From contig CBDHDF010000007.1 in NCBI GenBank assembly GCA_965261545.1, positions 288,001 to 352,000 of the forward strand: 64,000 nucleotides of DNA, written 5' to 3'. Source of the DNA: Bdellovibrionales bacterium (GTDB lineage Bacteria; Bdellovibrionota; Bdellovibrionia; Bdellovibrionales; UBA1609). Positions 30,001-42,000 of the stretch are shown here, in pieces (positions within the stretch are counted from its first letter, which is position 1; the number at the start of each line of letters is the position of its first letter). Made by a program: the position numbers.

Positions 30001-33000
30001 AAAAGAAAAGAAACAAGAGGTCTATGATTTAAATCGTTTTAGCTGGGTATATGAGAATGAGCTTGCTGTTTACGAAACAGACCATGGGGGGCATAGATGT
30101 ATTGTGACTTGGTCTAGGAAAAGAGCAGAGAGGGATAAAAAATCTAGAGAATCCCTTCTTGAAAAGATCGAAGGAAAACTATCTTCTAAAGGTGTTCAGT
30201 CTAGTACTTTTGTTTCCAATAAAGGTTATAAGAAATATGTAAAGATGGCTGACGACAAAAATAAAAAACCTGAATTAAATGCAGAACAAATAGAATTAGA
30301 TGAAAAAATTGATGGTTTTTTTGCCGTCCTTACAAATGTCAAAGACTTGACGGCAGATGAGATTATTATCAACTACAAAGAATTGTGGAAAATTGAAGAT
30401 GCTTTTGGTGAGTTAAAAGGGACTTTGAAAACACGTCCTGTTTTCCATTGGACAGACCAGAGGATTATTGGACATTTAACTCTATGCTTTTTAACTTATC
30501 TTTGTGAGGCCCACCTTACAAAATGTTTAAGAGATAAGAAGATGAACCTAAAAAGCCCAGCCATAGGCATTGGTCATGTTAAAGAGCGACCTTTAACTGT
30601 TGTAGAGGCCATGAGGGAACTCAAGGAAGTTAGGGCTATCCCTGTTAAAATTCGTGATCAAGTCATTTGGACCCGCACAGATATCACTGGCAATGCCAAC
30701 TCCTTATTTAAAGCCGCAGGCGTCCCCATCCCTCCCAGAATCCTTAATGCCCACAAGTGTGGATAAACAAAATACAACTATATGCGTTAATCCTTTAATA
30801 TCATTCGTTTGACGCAGATGCTGCTGTCAAACTCGGGAGGTTGTTAAATCATACAACACAATGTCTACTTGGAAATTAAATAAATCTCGCCCCACCCAAT
30901 AAAGCGAGTTCTCTATTTCATCCTTATGGGAGGCAAGTAAGTCCATAGACCGATAAATATGCTGGAGACTCAAATCACCCTTAATCATGTCTGGGTAAAA
31001 AGATTTTTGCCAATACTCAAAAACCTTTAACTTGGAACTAGGAGCAATAAATCGGCTGGCAACTAAGGTAAAAATCACCTTACATAAATCAAATTGAACT
31101 TTCTCATGAGAATCTTTTATGTCTTTGAGGGTCTTATTGATACCCAGTTGATCAAACAACTTTTGTAAAATCAGCAAGGGACCCAAAATGAAAGTCTCTT
31201 CGATGTAAAGCTCCTTAGCCAATTGACTCACAGTGAGAAGCTCTCGGTGGCGGGATACGGCCTGCGCCAAACTATTAATCTTATCCTCTCCTCCTTCTCC
31301 AGCCTTACCTAAGGACATGAGCATGCGTTTTTTGGATTTGCCTTTTTCTCTGTAGGACTCCACAAGGTGGTAGTAGCACTGACCTTTTGAGTTTTTAGTC
31401 GTTTGGATGTACATGAGGATATTTTCTACATATTTCTATGATATATCAATATTTAAAACGATAAAATCCTATTTTGTTTTCTACACTTTTTTTACGTCAA
31501 TTTTAATTTTTCCAGCAGCTACCATTATATTTCAGTACAACCCCAATTTCTGGAAATTTCGCATTTTAACGCAGATGCTGCTGTCAAACTCGGGATGTAC
31601 TGGCCATATCCACATATCCATGGTTTCAAAAGGCTAGACGAAGGGCAAGCTTATTTTGTGCATAGATTTGTTGCCTGGTTTGTTGAAGAGTGTGAGGCAT
31701 GACTTTGGCAGTTAGGTGACCAAAGGAGTAGCGTGACTCATAACGATATGCGTTAGTTTCGGCCTAAAACTTCTTGCGATAAAGTTGCAATGTGTCTTAC
31801 CATAAAATGGTGGGGGGGCGATGTTGGCAGGATGACTTACAAAGCAAGGATGTTTTGGCATCGTCCTTTTTTTTATCCCACAGATTTTCTTTTCTTTATT
31901 TCATTTTCATCTCTATTTCTTATAGTGGTCTCTTTAGTTATGATGGAGCGACTACCACATACACCTTAACTACAACTGCGAATGCACTCAAGTTACTTCT
32001 TAGTCACCTCTTTCGGACGAATGTATAGTATTTAATTATTATAATAATTAACATTGTCCTTTGGAATAAGAAAATATAATTTTTAGGAATGGAATATTTT
32101 ATAGCCCTAAGCCTAATGCAATGCGCTAAATTGATGGGAAGTTTTGCAATGGGCCTTGGTGCCCTTAGGAGAAACTCTGGGTTTTCTCTTATTTCTATGA
32201 TGATAGCGACTTCTATTATGGGATTTTCCATGTCTGCTCTGGTTTCATTGATGGTTCGTCAGGAAAAGGGAGGAGTGGATTTAGGTCACAGGTTCGACAA
32301 TGCTCGCTTACAGCAAAGTCTTTTGAGTGCGATGATGAATTCTGAAATATGCACTTGTCATTTTGTCGTCGATTCAGGTTCTACAGTGACTTTAGATACA
32401 CAGGGGTTAGGGGATATTCCAATGGGCTTTGTTCGAAGTAGCTGTGATTTTTCATCCCAAGATAATATTCTTGTGGAGGCGGGAGTTCATGTGCCTGGAA
32501 GCAGCGCCTTAATGGTGGAAAACATCAAGGTGACAGATATTAAATTCACGGGGACAGCCGACAGGTATTCAGGAAATCTCAGTGTGGAATACAACCAAGA
32601 AAGCTTGCCCTATCCCATGGGGACTTTTTTTATTCCCCTTGTTTTAATAGTGGATTCAGAATTAGGCACAGGTGTGGCGCATCCTATTGAATCTTGCTGG
32701 AACTCTGAATCACAGGGTGAGGAAAGTCCTTGGAGTGAGGTCAATAATGGGAATGGTGGGGGAGGAGGAGGTAGCACCAATGATGGGAGTGAGGCTGAAA
32801 GTGCCAGCGGATTTTATAATGCTTGCATGCTTATGGACTTCTCTTCAGATGAGGATAGAGATGGACGAACTTTAGTGGGTTGCGGGGGCACTGCAAATAT
32901 TTTTCGCCCCCCCCATAGCACGGCTTTTGGGTTTGGCGCGGGGTTACTCTCCGGGAGTGGAGACAATACTTATTTGGGTTATAGTGCTGGGGGAGAGCAT

Positions 33001-39000: not shown

Positions 39001-42000
39001 TATTTTAAAAACCAAAAATAAGTTTGACGAGGATTGGCAGGATTTAATAGCCAGACTTTCTAGGACTCCCTTGGATGGCTGCTGTGCTTCTGAATGACTG
39101 TGTAGATATCTAAAAGGCGGTTTATCACATCTCTCAAATTGTGGAGGGGAAGTTGAGTTGCGGAGTCGGATAGGGCCTGTGAGGGATCGGGGTGAGTTTC
39201 CATAAACAGAGCCTCGGCTCCCGCTGCCACGGCAGCCATGGAAAGGGTAAGAATTTGTTCTCTGGGGCCACCTCCCGTGGTGGCTCCCCCCAGCCTTTGG
39301 ATGGAGTGAGTGGCGTCGTGAACCACTTTGGCACCAAAGCTTTTCATAATGGAAAAGCTTGTCATGTCGACGACCAGTCGTCCATAACCAAAGCAGCTTC
39401 CTCTTTCGGTCAATAAAATGTTTGATCTGGGGATGAAGTGAGCCGCTTTTTCCACGAGATACTCTGTTTGTTCAGGAGCTATAAACTGACCCTTTTTAAC
39501 TTTGAGGCGGCGTTGATATTTTTTGCAAGCCATGGCCCCTTCCACGATCATATCCGTTTGCCGGCATAAGAAGGCGGGAATTTGAAGAACATCCACAACT
39601 GAGGCAACATCATCCGCTTGGGAGGGGAGATGAAAATCAGTGAGCACCGGAAGGGAAAAAGTGGTTTTCACCTTTTCTAAAAGACGCAACCCCTCTTCAA
39701 GCCCAGGACCTCTGTAAGAGTTTATGGAGGTTCGATTGGCCTTATCAAAACTTCCCTTGAAAGTTATAGACACGGACTCACCTAACTCTTGGTTAAGGGA
39801 GGCCAATGTTTCAGCCACCGTCATTGCCAAACTTTCACTTTCTAAAACACAGGGGCCTGCAAAAACCTCCATGGTGGAAATCTTGTTGGGACTCATAGTG
39901 GGACTCCTATGGGGGGGCTGGGATTCCTACGGTAATATTAGGGTGGTTTTTTACTCCCTTCTCACTTTACGAAGACAGCCTTTCGTTCTATAAGCTCATC
40001 TATGTTAGAAGTCCAGTGGTTTGGAAAAAGGCCCTACAATGAGTCTTGTCGCATACAGCACTCAGGTCTCCAAGAAATTCGGTATGGAGCAACTCCAAAA
40101 GTTATGGGATTTGAATATCCCACCACTATTACCCAAGGGATTCGCTCTCAGGGCTTCCTGGATATTCTGAAGCCCAGGGATTTTTGGGAGAGTCAGAAAA
40201 TACCCATTGTCTCCACGGGGCGTGGAGGGCAGACAACCCTCCACTCGCCAGGTCAATTGGTGATTTATCCCCTGCTTCCACTTAGCTCTTGGAGGTTGGG
40301 CGTCAAAGATTATGTTCATCTTCTTCTAAAGGCCACCTCCCAGTGGCTTTTGCACCAGGGTGTCTGGGCCTGTGAGCGGAAGAATCACACCGGCCTTTTT
40401 ACAGAGCGAGGAAAAATTGCCTTTGTTGGAATTGCAGTGCGTTATGGTGTCAGTCAGCATGGACTCTCCATCAATGTGGCCAATGATCTCCGGCTGTTTT
40501 CCATGATTAAGTCCTGTGGCATACGTCATATGGATTTGGATGCCATTTACCCCTATCCTCAAAAAGTGGAGCTCGCTCCCTTTTTTCAGAGTTGGTGTCC
40601 CTACTTTACTAGCCAATTAAAACCAATTAAAAACTTATAAGAGTTTGTGAGAGTTTAGATTTTGTAAGGGTTTAGATGATGAATTCAAAAGAGTTGTTTG
40701 AAAGAGCAAAAAAGGTGATTCCTGGGGGCGTTCATAGCCCTGTAAGGTCCTTTCAATCCGTGGGGGGGGAGCCCTTGTTTTTTAAATCTGCTCAGGGGGC
40801 TTATATGACCACGGTGGAGGGCGAGGAACTCATTGATTTTTGTCAGAGTTTTGGTCCCAACCTTTTAGGACATAGAGACGTCGATGTGGCTTTCAAAGTT
40901 CAACAAATGGTTCAGAGGGCCTGGAGTCTTGGGGCCTGTGACCCCTATTCACTGGAGCTATCGGAATGGTTGGTGGAGAGGCTTCCCTGGGTGGACCAAG
41001 TGCGCTTGGTGAGTTCGGGGACCGAGGCTGTGATGAGCGCCCTTCGCCTCGCTCGGGCAGCGACAGGGCGGCGAAAAATTTTGAAATTTGAGGGCTGCTA
41101 TCACGGTCATACGGATGCGATGTTGGTCAAGGCAGGAAGTGGTTTGGCGGGTGCTGTTGCCAGTGACTCTGCCGGTGTCGAGGGTTCTCTTGTGGAAGAT
41201 ACCATGATTATTCCCTTGGACGACGAAGAGAAATTGAATCAAGTGCTACAGGCCCAGGGTTCTCAAATGGCCGCTGTTATTTTAGAGCCACTGCCCGCCA
41301 ATTATGGACTTTTAAAGCAGCGTCCTTCATTTATTAAGAAATTATTTCAAGGAGCCAAAAACTGTGGGGCCTTGGTGATCTTTGATGAGGTAATTTCAGG
41401 TTTTCGAGTGGGACTTCAGGGCATGGCGGGTTTGTTGGAGCTTTCGCCAGACCTTGTGACATATGGAAAGGTTATGGGAGGAGGCTTTCCCATGGGGTGT
41501 TTTGGGGGGCGTCGAGATATTATGGAACTGGTGGCTCCCTGTGGTCCTGTTTATCAGGCGGGGACGCTGGCCGCCCATCCCGTGGCCACTTGTGCAGGGC
41601 TTGCGACTTTGCAAAAGGTGGAGAAGAGGGGAGTTTATGGGGTTCTCGATCAACGCATGAAAGTCTTTGTAAACTCACTTCAAAAGGGCCTTGAGGTCAC
41701 AGACTGGGATATCACTTTTCAGAATTCTTTGTTTTGGTTTCACTTAAAGAGTGCCGAGCCCTACCGCTCCCCTCGGCAGTTGCCCCCCCAGTTGAGGGCA
41801 AGGTTTCAAGAGCTTTTTCACGGTTGTGTGTGTCGAGGTGTTTACTTGGCTCCAAGTGCCTTTGAAGTCAATTTTTTATCTTTGGCTCACACGGAAGAAA
41901 TTTTAGAAAAGGCTGCTGCGGCCATTGTGGCTGCAGCGATGGAATCCACCAAAGGCCAAGCTCTTAAATGAGGTGGAAAAGAGAGTTTGTGAGAAAGAGC

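What a model noticed while it worked through the whole genome (the two positions that open the first line are those of the whole stretch)
32089..39097. Four gene triplets for tail-fibre-like proteins that start with a type IV pilin signal
Four loci each hold three adjacent genes for 743-875-aa proteins; the twelve proteins fall into three orthologous types (A, B, C, one of each per locus), all begin with a prepilin-like G|F/I/V-x-L-I/V-S hydrophobic N-terminus, continue with a Cys-rich domain and about 17 beta-helix repeats (N-x-F-x-G-x-x-A-G), and end with the Ser-Lys dyad region of the S74 self-cleaving fibre chaperone and a long helix. I read them as heterotrimeric (A+B+C) adhesive fibres that are mounted on type IV pili or a pseudopilus through their pilin-like helices, four interchangeable sets for recognising different prey. 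New would be a direct structural link between the pilus and the phage-like fibres used by predat [...]
Evidence so far: Loci: C7 320089-327097 (g01645-47), C7 426754-433639 (g01728-30), C2 618917-626256 (g00598-600), C2 632223-639169 (g00607-09). N-termini such as ..NSG|FSLISMMIATSIMG, ..QGG|VTLISALVAVLVIS, ..SYG|FAMLSIILSISIMS; identities 37-64% within a type, 26-35% between types. Pfam: N_methyl over cut-off in g01645, g01728; Peptidase_S74 in g00600, g00609, g01647 and just over the cut-off in g00598, g00599. Alignment of all 12: invariant G20 before the hydrophobic stretch, C76 C78 C112 C195 C210 C237, S586 S587 K591 K592. AF2 model of g01647 (12-row alignment; mean pLDDT 61.6): helix 19-70, beta-sandwich 132-197, regular short strands every 17 residues 232-540 (pLDDT 72-87), helix 654-749. 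Prepilin pepti [...]
(Added by a program. Inside this text positions count along the whole contig: contig position 288,001 is position 1 of the stretch shown here. "Call 12" and the like, gene names such as g00115 and contig names such as C1 are that model's own, and its searches are not shown. The text may have been shortened before it was handed on; [...] marks where a part breaks off. The agent that wrote the report below was given it as the finding of a first reader that could run no searches.)

Follow-up and report, generated by a model that had tools for sequence, protein, structure and literature searches.

The report
Pilin-anchored three-chain adhesive fibres
A relative of the predatory bacterium Bdellovibrio carries four sets of three genes, and each set probably builds one sticky surface fibre from three different chains that start like pilus subunits and end like phage tail fibres, which would let the cell swap adhesive tips on its pili; the case is computational only.

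Summary
Confirmed: three intact, overlapping genes (A, B, C; window 32089-39097), one of four such triplets; these 12 are the genome's only S74 hits. Each joins a type IV pilin-like domain to 19 repeats (not ~17) and an S74 self-cleaving chaperone. The pilin reading holds: leader-Gly plus hydrophobic helix in 12 of 12, Glu5-bearing homologues across the order, and a predicted head whose weak fold matches are mostly pilins. The best evidence for a heterotrimer is register. Repeat number is fixed within triplets (19 here; 16 in a relative's two triplets; 15 in a probable third) but runs 13-23 in lone genes. Related short pilins also come in threes, often two with Glu5 and one without, like known pilus-tip complexes. 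Against: all three chains here lack Glu5, no pilus genes lie alongside, complex prediction was weak (0.35 vs control 0.11), coiled-coil charges favour AAA. Pilin+S74 fusions were tabulated in 2021 as 'peptidases'; this scan noted similar pilin-fibre-S74 genes on other DNA. Prey binding is untested. New variant of a known kind.

The parts
32089..34518 (+). Gene A, 809 aa from the first ATG (a later ATG 10-21 codons before the Gly is also possible): pilin domain, Gly/Ser-rich linker, 19 repeats, neck, S74 chaperone, coiled coil
32182..32697 (+). A: mature pilin-like domain, from G31|F32 (FSLIS, Ser at +5) to Cys203; conserved Cys88, 90, 119, 203
32917..33879 (+). A: 19 repeats of 16-20 residues (x-x-hydrophobic-hydrophobic-G-x-x-A/S-G), read as beta-roll rungs (approximate limits)
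33946..34104 (+). A: S74 chaperone core, starting at Ser620 (S-S-R-E-L-K)
34515..36815 (+). Gene B, 766 aa; same layout; start overlaps the stop of A
34599..35135 (+). B: mature pilin-like domain, from G28|V29 (VTLIS) to Cys207
35325..36254 (+). B: 19 repeats, the most irregular type (approximate limits)
36321..36485 (+). B: S74 chaperone core from Ser603 (S-S-R-A-L-K); further on, all four B chains of this genome have F-A-A where A and C have F-W-A/S
36812..39097 (+). Gene C, 761 aa; same layout; start overlaps the stop of B; most conserved type
36872..37396 (+). C: mature pilin-like domain, from G20|F21 (FAMLS) to Cys195; model: long helix then an antiparallel sheet
37556..38500 (+). C: 19 regular repeats of 16-18 residues (approximate limits)
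38567..38722 (+). C: S74 chaperone core from Ser586 (S-S-R-F-L-K)
38792..39058 (+). C: C-terminal coiled coil, aligned without gaps to those of A and B (Trp 91 residues after the PDWP motif in 11 of 12 chains; approximate limits)

Best explanation
Each triplet encodes one heterotrimeric adhesive fibre made of three modular type IV minor pilins. Steps: (1) each chain enters the inner membrane by its class III signal and the prepilin peptidase PilD cuts after the Gly (inferred from the motif; about 0.85). (2) In the periplasm the three S74 domains and their coiled coils trimerise, zip the three 19-rung repeat stacks together in register, then cut themselves off at the Ser of S-S-x-x-x-K (inferred from the S74 family; trimer about 0.9, A+B+C rather than like-with-like about 0.7). 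(3) The three pilin helices bundle as a tip complex that is pushed out first by a type IV filament machine, most likely the type IVa pilus, for which no other minor-pilin set was seen here (about 0.55-0.6). (4) The outer loops of the repeats, most variable in A and B, bind a surface ligand; the four loci give four alternative tips. The ligand (prey, host or matrix) is unknown. Shown here: genes, motifs, counts, homology. Inferred: every biochemical step.
For: Pilin: leader-Gly plus hydrophobic helix in 12 of 12; a profile of the domain hits 307 of 384 genomes of the order, many only weakly; Glu5 in 38 of 88 non-own hits with a readable motif; Atlas first hit a PilV-like Bdellovibrionota cluster, 0.95 (N_methyl on 42% of members); head model without the hydrophobic helix (pLDDT 93.5) gives 8 of the top 12 and 15 of 50 rows that are type IV pilins or pseudopilins, best Z 4.0, rmsd 3.8, 98 aligned. 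Machinery: PilD with both Asp motifs, PilA, PilB/T/C, PilM-Q, a T2SS and Tad parts. Heterotrimer: 19 rungs in the 12 chains (parser: 10 directly, 2 after curation) and 18-20 in 7 A/B/C-type proteins from other metagenomes; three of those (one each of A, B, C) each lie on a contig of 114,398 bases; genome G328 has two triplets with 16 core rungs each and a first-rung-to-Ser span of 307 residues in 5 of 6; L083a, L083b, L082 have 15 each; lone genes vary, 13-23, and 14-18 among five paralogues of one genome that are 56-78% identical. Coiled coil gap-free across types. Related pilins in fetched loci: runs of 1, 2, 3, 6 = 46, 13, 13, 1, none of 4 or 5 (loci partly picked for clustering). Complex prediction A+C+B, N-terminal thirds: weak support, 0.35 vs best control 0.11; mark reached by 116 of 157 solved complexes and 2 of 215 mismatches, at 0.60 or under by 18 of 157 and both mismatches; runs agree in at least 42% of contacts, partner pLDDT at least 64. 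pN below pS in all four parts for the 3 pairs computed.
Against: No chain of the 12 has Glu5, whereas known tip complexes have one capping subunit without it (PMC10191384). No type IV filament genes lie next to any of the four loci. The fold matches are all below Z 5 and Foldseek found nothing at E<=0.001. A g-e charge score of the coiled coil favours AAA (12, 12, 6, 6) over ABC (5, 5, 7, 2) in 3 of 4 loci. No like-with-like complex was predicted for comparison, so one search does not separate hetero- from homotrimer. Equal rung numbers could be inherited without selection; kin are not independent. Pairs are as common as triplets in the tally (13 each), and single-gene versions exist (G385, G387 have one S74 gene each). 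Triplets in G256 carry hexapeptide-type repeats of unequal length. The S74-only tree puts P0011 with C, the full-length tree with B.
Confidence: 0.5

Rival explanations
1. Each gene makes its own homotrimeric pilin-anchored fibre (AAA, BBB, CCC); the triplets are co-expressed tandem paralogues, like the CofB/TcpB homotrimeric tip.
For: Single-gene versions are common and two one-contig genomes hold one such gene each, so the design can work with one chain. The charge score favours AAA. All 12 keep the Ser-Lys pair. Solved MAT fibres are symmetric trimers (PMC10769870).
Against: Does not explain the fixed A-B-C order in 4 of 4 loci, rung numbers matched within triplets at 19, 16 and 15 while lone genes vary, the lack of runs of 4 or 5, or the E/Q/E pattern in both G328 triplets. 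BBB scores 0 in 3 of 4 loci.
Confidence: 0.2
2. A heterotrimeric fibre that is not built into a pilus: the Glu5-less helices serve as a membrane anchor, or as a handle by which the T2SS pseudopilus pushes the fibre out and releases it.
For: All 12 chains and all 8 short paralogues with a readable motif lack Glu5; no pilus genes nearby; head fold match is weak; a T2SS is present.
Against: A 19-rung stack is only about 9 nm long (19 x 0.48 nm, my estimate), too short to reach the outside from the inner membrane. The invariant Gly before the helix fits peptidase cleavage. The genome's own GspK lacks Glu5 too, and the T2SS already has its own H, I, J, K genes. Close architectural relatives keep Glu5.
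Confidence: 0.22
3. Remnants of phage tail-fibre genes or decaying mobile cargo with no present role.
For: The S74 domain is best known from phages; the nearest Atlas clusters for the repeat+S74 part are viral; the loci lie among insertion sequences.
Against: 12 of 12 long frames are intact in a genome where a second pilA and some short paralogues look broken; pN below pS; no phage genes seen beside any locus; the N-terminal domain belongs to a Bdellovibrionales-wide pilin family.
Confidence: 0.03

Closest known systems
Modular type IV pilins, architectures IPR012902-IPR030392 (29 proteins) and IPR012902-IPR008640(x1-3)-IPR030392 (8 proteins) in Raynaud et al. 2021, PMC8179133
   Same: Pilin N-terminus fused to an S74 domain, with YadA-head-type repeats between in 8 entries (IPR008640 = YadA-like head is recalled, not looked up).
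   Different: There only tabulated and read as 'peptidase activity'; in the passages and table rows seen, no fibre, trimer, triplet or Bdellovibrio is mentioned. Here the pilin lacks Glu5, the motif is S-S-x-x-x-K, and genes come as A-B-C sets with matched repeat numbers.
Myxococcus xanthus Kil Tad tips KilLMN (PMC12075869)
   Same: Four paralogous three-gene clusters of minor pilins, predicted heterotrimers on a bundle of three alpha1N helices, disulfide-rich, interchangeable, used in predation.
   Different: Kil tips are TadE/F/G-type with one large variable domain. These have a GFSL-type leader and a fibre with a self-cleaving chaperone on every chain.
Core minor-pilin tip complexes GspI-J-K / PilHIJK (PDB 3ci0; PMC10191384)
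   Same: Three adjacent pilins; weak fold matches to GspK, XcpV and EpsI; the two-Glu5-plus-one-without pattern occurs in homologous triplets.
   Different: All three chains here lack Glu5, are paralogues of one another, lie outside any filament operon and carry about 550 extra residues.
Bdellovibrio bacteriovorus MAT fibres (Caulton et al. 2024, PMC10769870)
   Same: Phage-like trimeric fibres with a C-terminal S74 chaperone in a Bdellovibrionota genome, several per genome.
   Different: MATs have a signal peptide and a ~130-aa beta-rich domain of unknown anchor, symmetric trimers, SDxxxK and swapped tip domains; 'pilin' does not occur in the paper's main text. Here a pilin is the anchor and no separate tip domain is seen.
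CofB / TcpB trimeric type IVb minor pilins (as described in PMC8179133, PMC10191384)
   Same: Pilin domain plus extra beta domains forming a trimer at the pilus tip.
   Different: Homotrimers without S74; they act as adapters for a secreted protein.

Membership tests
Type IV pilin (class III signal peptide) | Hydrophilic leader ending in Gly or Ala | tested here: met
   Gly in 12 of 12; net charge of the 21 residues up to the Gly >=0 in 11 of 12
Type IV pilin (class III signal peptide) | 20-25 mainly hydrophobic residues after the cut | tested here: met
   Mean hydropathy 1.8-2.5 over 21 residues; at most 1 charge in +1..+23
Type IV pilin (class III signal peptide) | Glu at +5 ('often, but not always', PMC10191384) | tested here: not met
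   Ser in 11, Ala in 1; Glu in 38 of 88 non-own homologues with a readable motif
Type IV pilin (class III signal peptide) | Pilin fold: long alpha1, alpha-beta loop, antiparallel sheet | tested here: inconclusive
   Models show this order; 15 of 50 VIA rows are pilins but best Z 4.0; Foldseek no match
Type IV pilin (class III signal peptide) | Cleavage by prepilin peptidase and assembly into a filament | not testable with these tools
   PilD and a TadV-like peptidase are encoded
Minor-pilin tip complex (GspIJK, PilHIJK, KilLMN) | Three adjacent co-oriented minor-pilin genes | tested here: met
   4 of 4 loci; 13 runs of three and one of six in relatives
Minor-pilin tip complex (GspIJK, PilHIJK, KilLMN) | One capping subunit without Glu5, the others with it | tested here: not met
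   All three lack it here; met in 8 homologous triplets: L104, L112 twice, L118, L119, L125, L126, L128
Minor-pilin tip complex (GspIJK, PilHIJK, KilLMN) | Heterotrimer through the pilin domains | tested here: inconclusive
   Weak support, 0.35 vs best control 0.11; no homotrimer comparison
Minor-pilin tip complex (GspIJK, PilHIJK, KilLMN) | Needed to prime filament extension | not testable with these tools
   Needs mutants
S74 intramolecular-chaperone fibres | Peptidase_S74 domain near the C-terminus | tested here: met
   12 of 12 over the cut-off in the genome search; 1 of 3 in the whole-protein scan
S74 intramolecular-chaperone fibres | Ser-Lys pair five residues apart (SDxxxK) | tested here: met
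   Ser and Lys in 12 of 12, but Ser replaces the Asp at +1; canonical SDxRLK in G328
S74 intramolecular-chaperone fibres | C-terminal coiled coil | tested here: met
   Heptad pattern over about 85 residues, gap-free
S74 intramolecular-chaperone fibres | Self-cleavage after trimerisation | not testable with these tools
   Needs expression with Ser-to-Ala control
Bdellovibrio MAT family | Signal peptide followed by the conserved ~130-aa beta-rich MAT domain | tested here: not met
   N-terminus is pilin-like; MAT definition from PMC10769870; MAT sequences were not aligned directly
Bdellovibrio MAT family | Sequence likeness to solved MAT fibre tips | tested here: inconclusive
   Profile A2 against PDB sequences: 48 rows at E<=1, none named as a MAT or S74 fibre
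YadA-head-like left-handed beta-roll | Family hit or fold match for the repeats | tested here: inconclusive
   No Pfam family on the repeats; the likeness of the x-x-I-G-x-x-A motif is recalled; repeats not folded alone here

The most novel reading that the evidence does not exclude
Bdellovibrionales use a large, lineage-wide family of three-gene minor-pilin cassettes as interchangeable pilus tips, and in several lineages all three chains have been extended into one in-register, self-chaperoned heterotrimeric phage-like fibre. In this lineage the whole tip has lost Glu5, and these 12 chains stand in for the S74 MAT adhesins, so the pilus itself would carry the fibres that recognise prey or host.
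Probability: 0.4. Interest if true: 0.8.

Novelty: new variant of a known kind. Interest (0 to 1): 0.62.

Why it matters
How Bdellovibrio-like predators attach their adhesive fibres to the cell, and how pili and adhesins cooperate, is open: Caulton et al. 2024 leave the MAT anchor unidentified and name the interplay with type IV pili as a question. These genes fuse the two in one chain and point to a pilin family, present across the order, that I did not find described. A heterotrimeric S74 fibre would also be unusual, since the solved ones I read about are symmetric trimers; three different chains would allow asymmetric binding sites. The matched repeat numbers give a cheap, direct test: delete a rung in one chain or in all three.

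Tried and rejected
The search for homologous proteins with the first 230 residues of C found only 2 proteins, both of this genome. The metagenome-contig scan found 191 pattern matches, none confirmed. The PilY1 family search found nothing but also rang in none of 14 controls, so absence is not shown. No RNA holder listed: no evidence on expression. Promoter and terminator scans were at or below chance (14 vs 17.5; 3 vs 7.8). No recent DNA exchange between the four loci: best blastn match 84%. Idea that linker lengths follow a staggered A>B>C order: not consistent across loci. Coiled-coil charge test, prompted by an earlier scan note: does not favour ABC. The careful tree did not finish; the quick tree was used, and the separate N-terminal tree failed. 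The pN/pS script stopped after 3 of 5 pairs. The rung parser failed to start on 7 of 39 proteins (C3, P0019, P0045, P0047, P0063, P0076, L082) and on L085; one search stopped after 32 proteins. Sec or lipoprotein signal as the reading of the N-terminus: set aside by eye because the invariant Gly precedes the helix and no lipobox Cys follows; no signal predictor was available. Literature searches listed no paper on pilin-S74 fibres or their triplets beyond the 2021 table; the library lacks most subscription papers, and bioRxiv supplements were closed.

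
Full report
Observation. The genome (4.3 Mb, 11 contigs, 96.8% complete) holds three more A-B-C triplets; the 12 proteins are its only hits to Pfam Peptidase_S74. 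Identity is 37-65% within a type and about 26-35% between types. The window locus is preceded by insertion sequences and ends convergent with a DAHP-synthase-family gene. I place it in Bdellovibrionales by inference: the nearest fibre relatives in named records are 'Bdellovibrionales bacterium' (12 of 14 loci) and the Atlas clusters are mostly Bdellovibrionota. Predation was not tested.

Anatomy. Each chain has a leader ending in Gly, 21-22 uncharged residues, a helix, a head of about 150 residues with four conserved Cys, a linker, a run of repeats, a short neck, the S74 core with Ser and Lys five residues apart, and a coiled coil. Residue +5 is Ser (11) or Ala (1). No separate tip domain lies between repeats and chaperone, so after cleavage the repeat loops would be the exposed surface (inference). 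In the three pairs computed, the S74 part is the most conserved (pN 0.08-0.10) and the repeats of A and B the least (pN 0.36 at pS about 0.5); C's repeats are more conserved (0.19).

Is the N-terminus a pilin? Nine shorter paralogues in the genome share the domain, whole or in part, without a fibre. A profile hits 307 of 384 genomes of the order, many through the helix only, and 2,372 representatives in the large library. Among the top 150, non-own proteins with a readable motif had Glu at +5 in 38, Ser in 38 and another residue in 12 of 88. NCBIfam gave sub-threshold hits to minor pilins (ComGE in 8 of 19 rows, PilV in 4). A model of the head without the hydrophobic helix (pLDDT 93.5) matched nothing at Z 5 or more, but 8 of the top 12 and 15 of 50 rows among 48,161 chains are type IV pilins or pseudopilins, e.g. 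S. sanguinis PilA (Z 4.0, rmsd 3.8, 98 aligned) and GspK (Z 3.9, rmsd 4.9, 94). Each match is weak; the enrichment is what counts. The review PMC10191384 (passages) defines the signal as Gly/Ala, 20-25 hydrophobic residues and 'often, but not always' Glu5, and says tip complexes are capped by a subunit lacking it. I take the domain to be a divergent minor pilin.

Machinery. The genome encodes PilD with both Asp motifs and a second A24 peptidase, PilA, PilB, PilT, PilC, PilM-Q, a T2SS with G, H, I, J, K, and Tad parts (names by my reading of sequence and gene order). The N_methyl search (16 hits at E<=0.1) showed two pilA, four gsp genes and ten members of this family, but no separate PilV/W/X set. 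That makes the type IVa pilus the likeliest carrier; it is not shown. In B. bacteriovorus PilD cuts both PilA and Flp1 (bioRxiv 10.64898/2026.07.08.737194, passages).

Heterotrimer. A chain tied to two others at both ends (pilin bundle, S74 trimer) needs the same number of rungs as its partners; a homotrimer can change number freely. A motif parser gave 19 rungs for 10 of the 12 chains directly; C3 gave 19 after dropping one hit upstream of the repeats, and A4 gave 18 plus one irregular rung seen by eye. Loops between rungs vary up to 63 residues. Seven proteins from other metagenomes that group with A, B or C in the quick tree gave 18-20, four of them 19 directly. Three of them, one per type, are each recorded on a contig of 114,398 bases, and an A and a C type on one of 31,157: probably the same contigs. 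Lone genes with known context vary: L081 13, L084 22-23, L092 18, and 18, 14, 15, 16, 16 in five paralogues of one genome that are 56-78% identical; proteins without known context gave 10, 21, 27, 28. Two other lineages repeat the match at other numbers. G328 has six tandem pilin-repeat-S74 genes, two triplets with +5 residues E, Q, E, 16 core rungs each (raw parser 16-18 with flanking rungs) and 307 residues from first rung to catalytic Ser in 5 of 6. In another genome, L083 holds two tandem genes and ends inside the second; L082 begins with the tail of a paralogue and then a third gene; all three have Glu5 and 15 rungs (L082 counted by eye) at 48-54% identity; that the contigs join is inferred. 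Short pilins of the family also come in threes: in fetched loci runs of 1, 2, 3 and 6 numbered 46, 13, 13 and 1. The loci were partly chosen for clustering and the tally holds a few non-family rows, so it shows recurrence, not frequency. Eight triplets have two Glu5 chains and one without, the pattern of GspI-J-K. G256 has two triplets of the same pilin with hexapeptide-type repeats of unequal length.

Results against. All three chains lack Glu5 here. No filament genes flank the loci. The complex job on the N-terminal thirds (A 32-358, C 21-331, B 29-354) gave weak support: 0.35, best of 3 controls 0.11; the mark was reached by 116 of 157 solved complexes and 2 of 215 mismatches, but at 0.60 or under by only 18 of the 157 and by both mismatches; runs agreed in at least 42% of contacts, partner pLDDT at least 64. 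It says nothing on hetero versus homo. A crude g-e charge score favoured AAA over ABC in 3 of 4 loci. Single-gene versions exist. Equal counts may partly be inheritance.

What is known. Raynaud et al. 2021 (PMC8179133; passages, section 9, supplement rows) list pilin+S74 (29 proteins) and pilin+IPR008640+S74 (8) among modular pilins and read S74 as a peptidase. The Myxococcus paper PMC12075869 (passages, section 8) describes four interchangeable heterotrimeric Tad tips. Caulton et al. 2024 (PMC10769870; parts 1-3 of 8 and passages) describe MAT fibres with a signal peptide and an unknown anchor. A 2026 review (PMC13689555, passages) does not use the word 'pilin' or 'S74'. Eight searches listed nothing on pilin-S74 fibres or triplets. 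Earlier notes of this scan describe similar pilin-fibre-S74 genes, one as three tandem genes, on other DNA; I saw only their summaries.

Verdict. A real, intact, conserved system: modular minor pilins carrying phage-type S74 fibres. It works like a pilus-tip complex plus a chaperoned trimeric adhesin; it is not a MAT member and fails the Glu5 pattern of core tip complexes. The architecture is on record; the heterotrimer, the register rule and the Bdellovibrionales triplet-pilin family I did not find described. Whole mechanism about 0.5; interest 0.62.

Noticed in passing
G000 C7:131352-132038(-), C6:91921-92679, C10:958891-959502, C10:358561-359346(-), C11:1008640-1009656, C5:21220-22566, C10:660768-662018, C11:72865-74136, C10:412154-413131: Nine short paralogues with the same Glu5-less pilin domain and unrelated, often Cys-rich tails; all single genes; several lie beside insertion sequences and look cut short, one is frameshifted.
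   Followed up: partly
L009 (C5:18000-26000) and L010 (C10:657500-665500): The same gene neighbourhood occurs on two contigs, with one intact and one frameshifted pilin whose tails differ: a duplication or two strain haplotypes.
   Followed up: no
L063, L064, L065, L066 (G256): Triplets and broken pairs of the same pilin domain fused to YdcK/hexapeptide-type beta-solenoid repeats, all without Glu5 where readable.
   Followed up: partly
L079, L100, L101, L102 (G345); L104 (G330); L118, L119 (G219); L125 (G162); L128 (G163): Three-gene cassettes of 250-380-aa pilins with Cys-rich tails, up to four per genome, outside filament operons: candidate interchangeable pilus tips of Bdellovibrionales.
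   Followed up: partly
L103 (G345), L126 (G161), L127 (G081): Pairs or triplets of short pilins fused almost directly to S74 with no repeats between.
   Followed up: no
L086-L090 (G386): Five lone pilin-repeat-S74 genes with near-identical ends but different Cys-rich inserts before the S74, followed by small genes that look like pentapeptide-repeat proteins (by eye).
   Followed up: no
L001:1-1214 and 11663-15655; L002:1-1657 and 2397-4409: DUF285 surface-protein genes flank two of the four triplets (Pfam hit for 2 of the 4 genes scanned; the others by likeness).
   Followed up: no
window 22400-31600 and 55700-63300: Dense nests of insertion sequences (IS110 and other DDE transposases), some inverted or broken.
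   Followed up: no
G000 C11:240107-242596: A second pilA copy interrupted by insertion sequence.
   Followed up: no
window 47740-53890: Cluster with two FHA-domain proteins (Pfam) after a gene that resembles a TadC-type membrane protein (by eye).
   Followed up: no
window 35192: Run X2 carries a variant allele of the locus with about 19 substitutions over 4.8 kb and an in-frame 6-base insertion in the linker of B.
   Followed up: no
L097, L098 (G145): Three-gene sets of a more distant pilin type with 720-790-aa members that have a vWA-like motif by eye; no Pfam hit for the one scanned.
   Followed up: no
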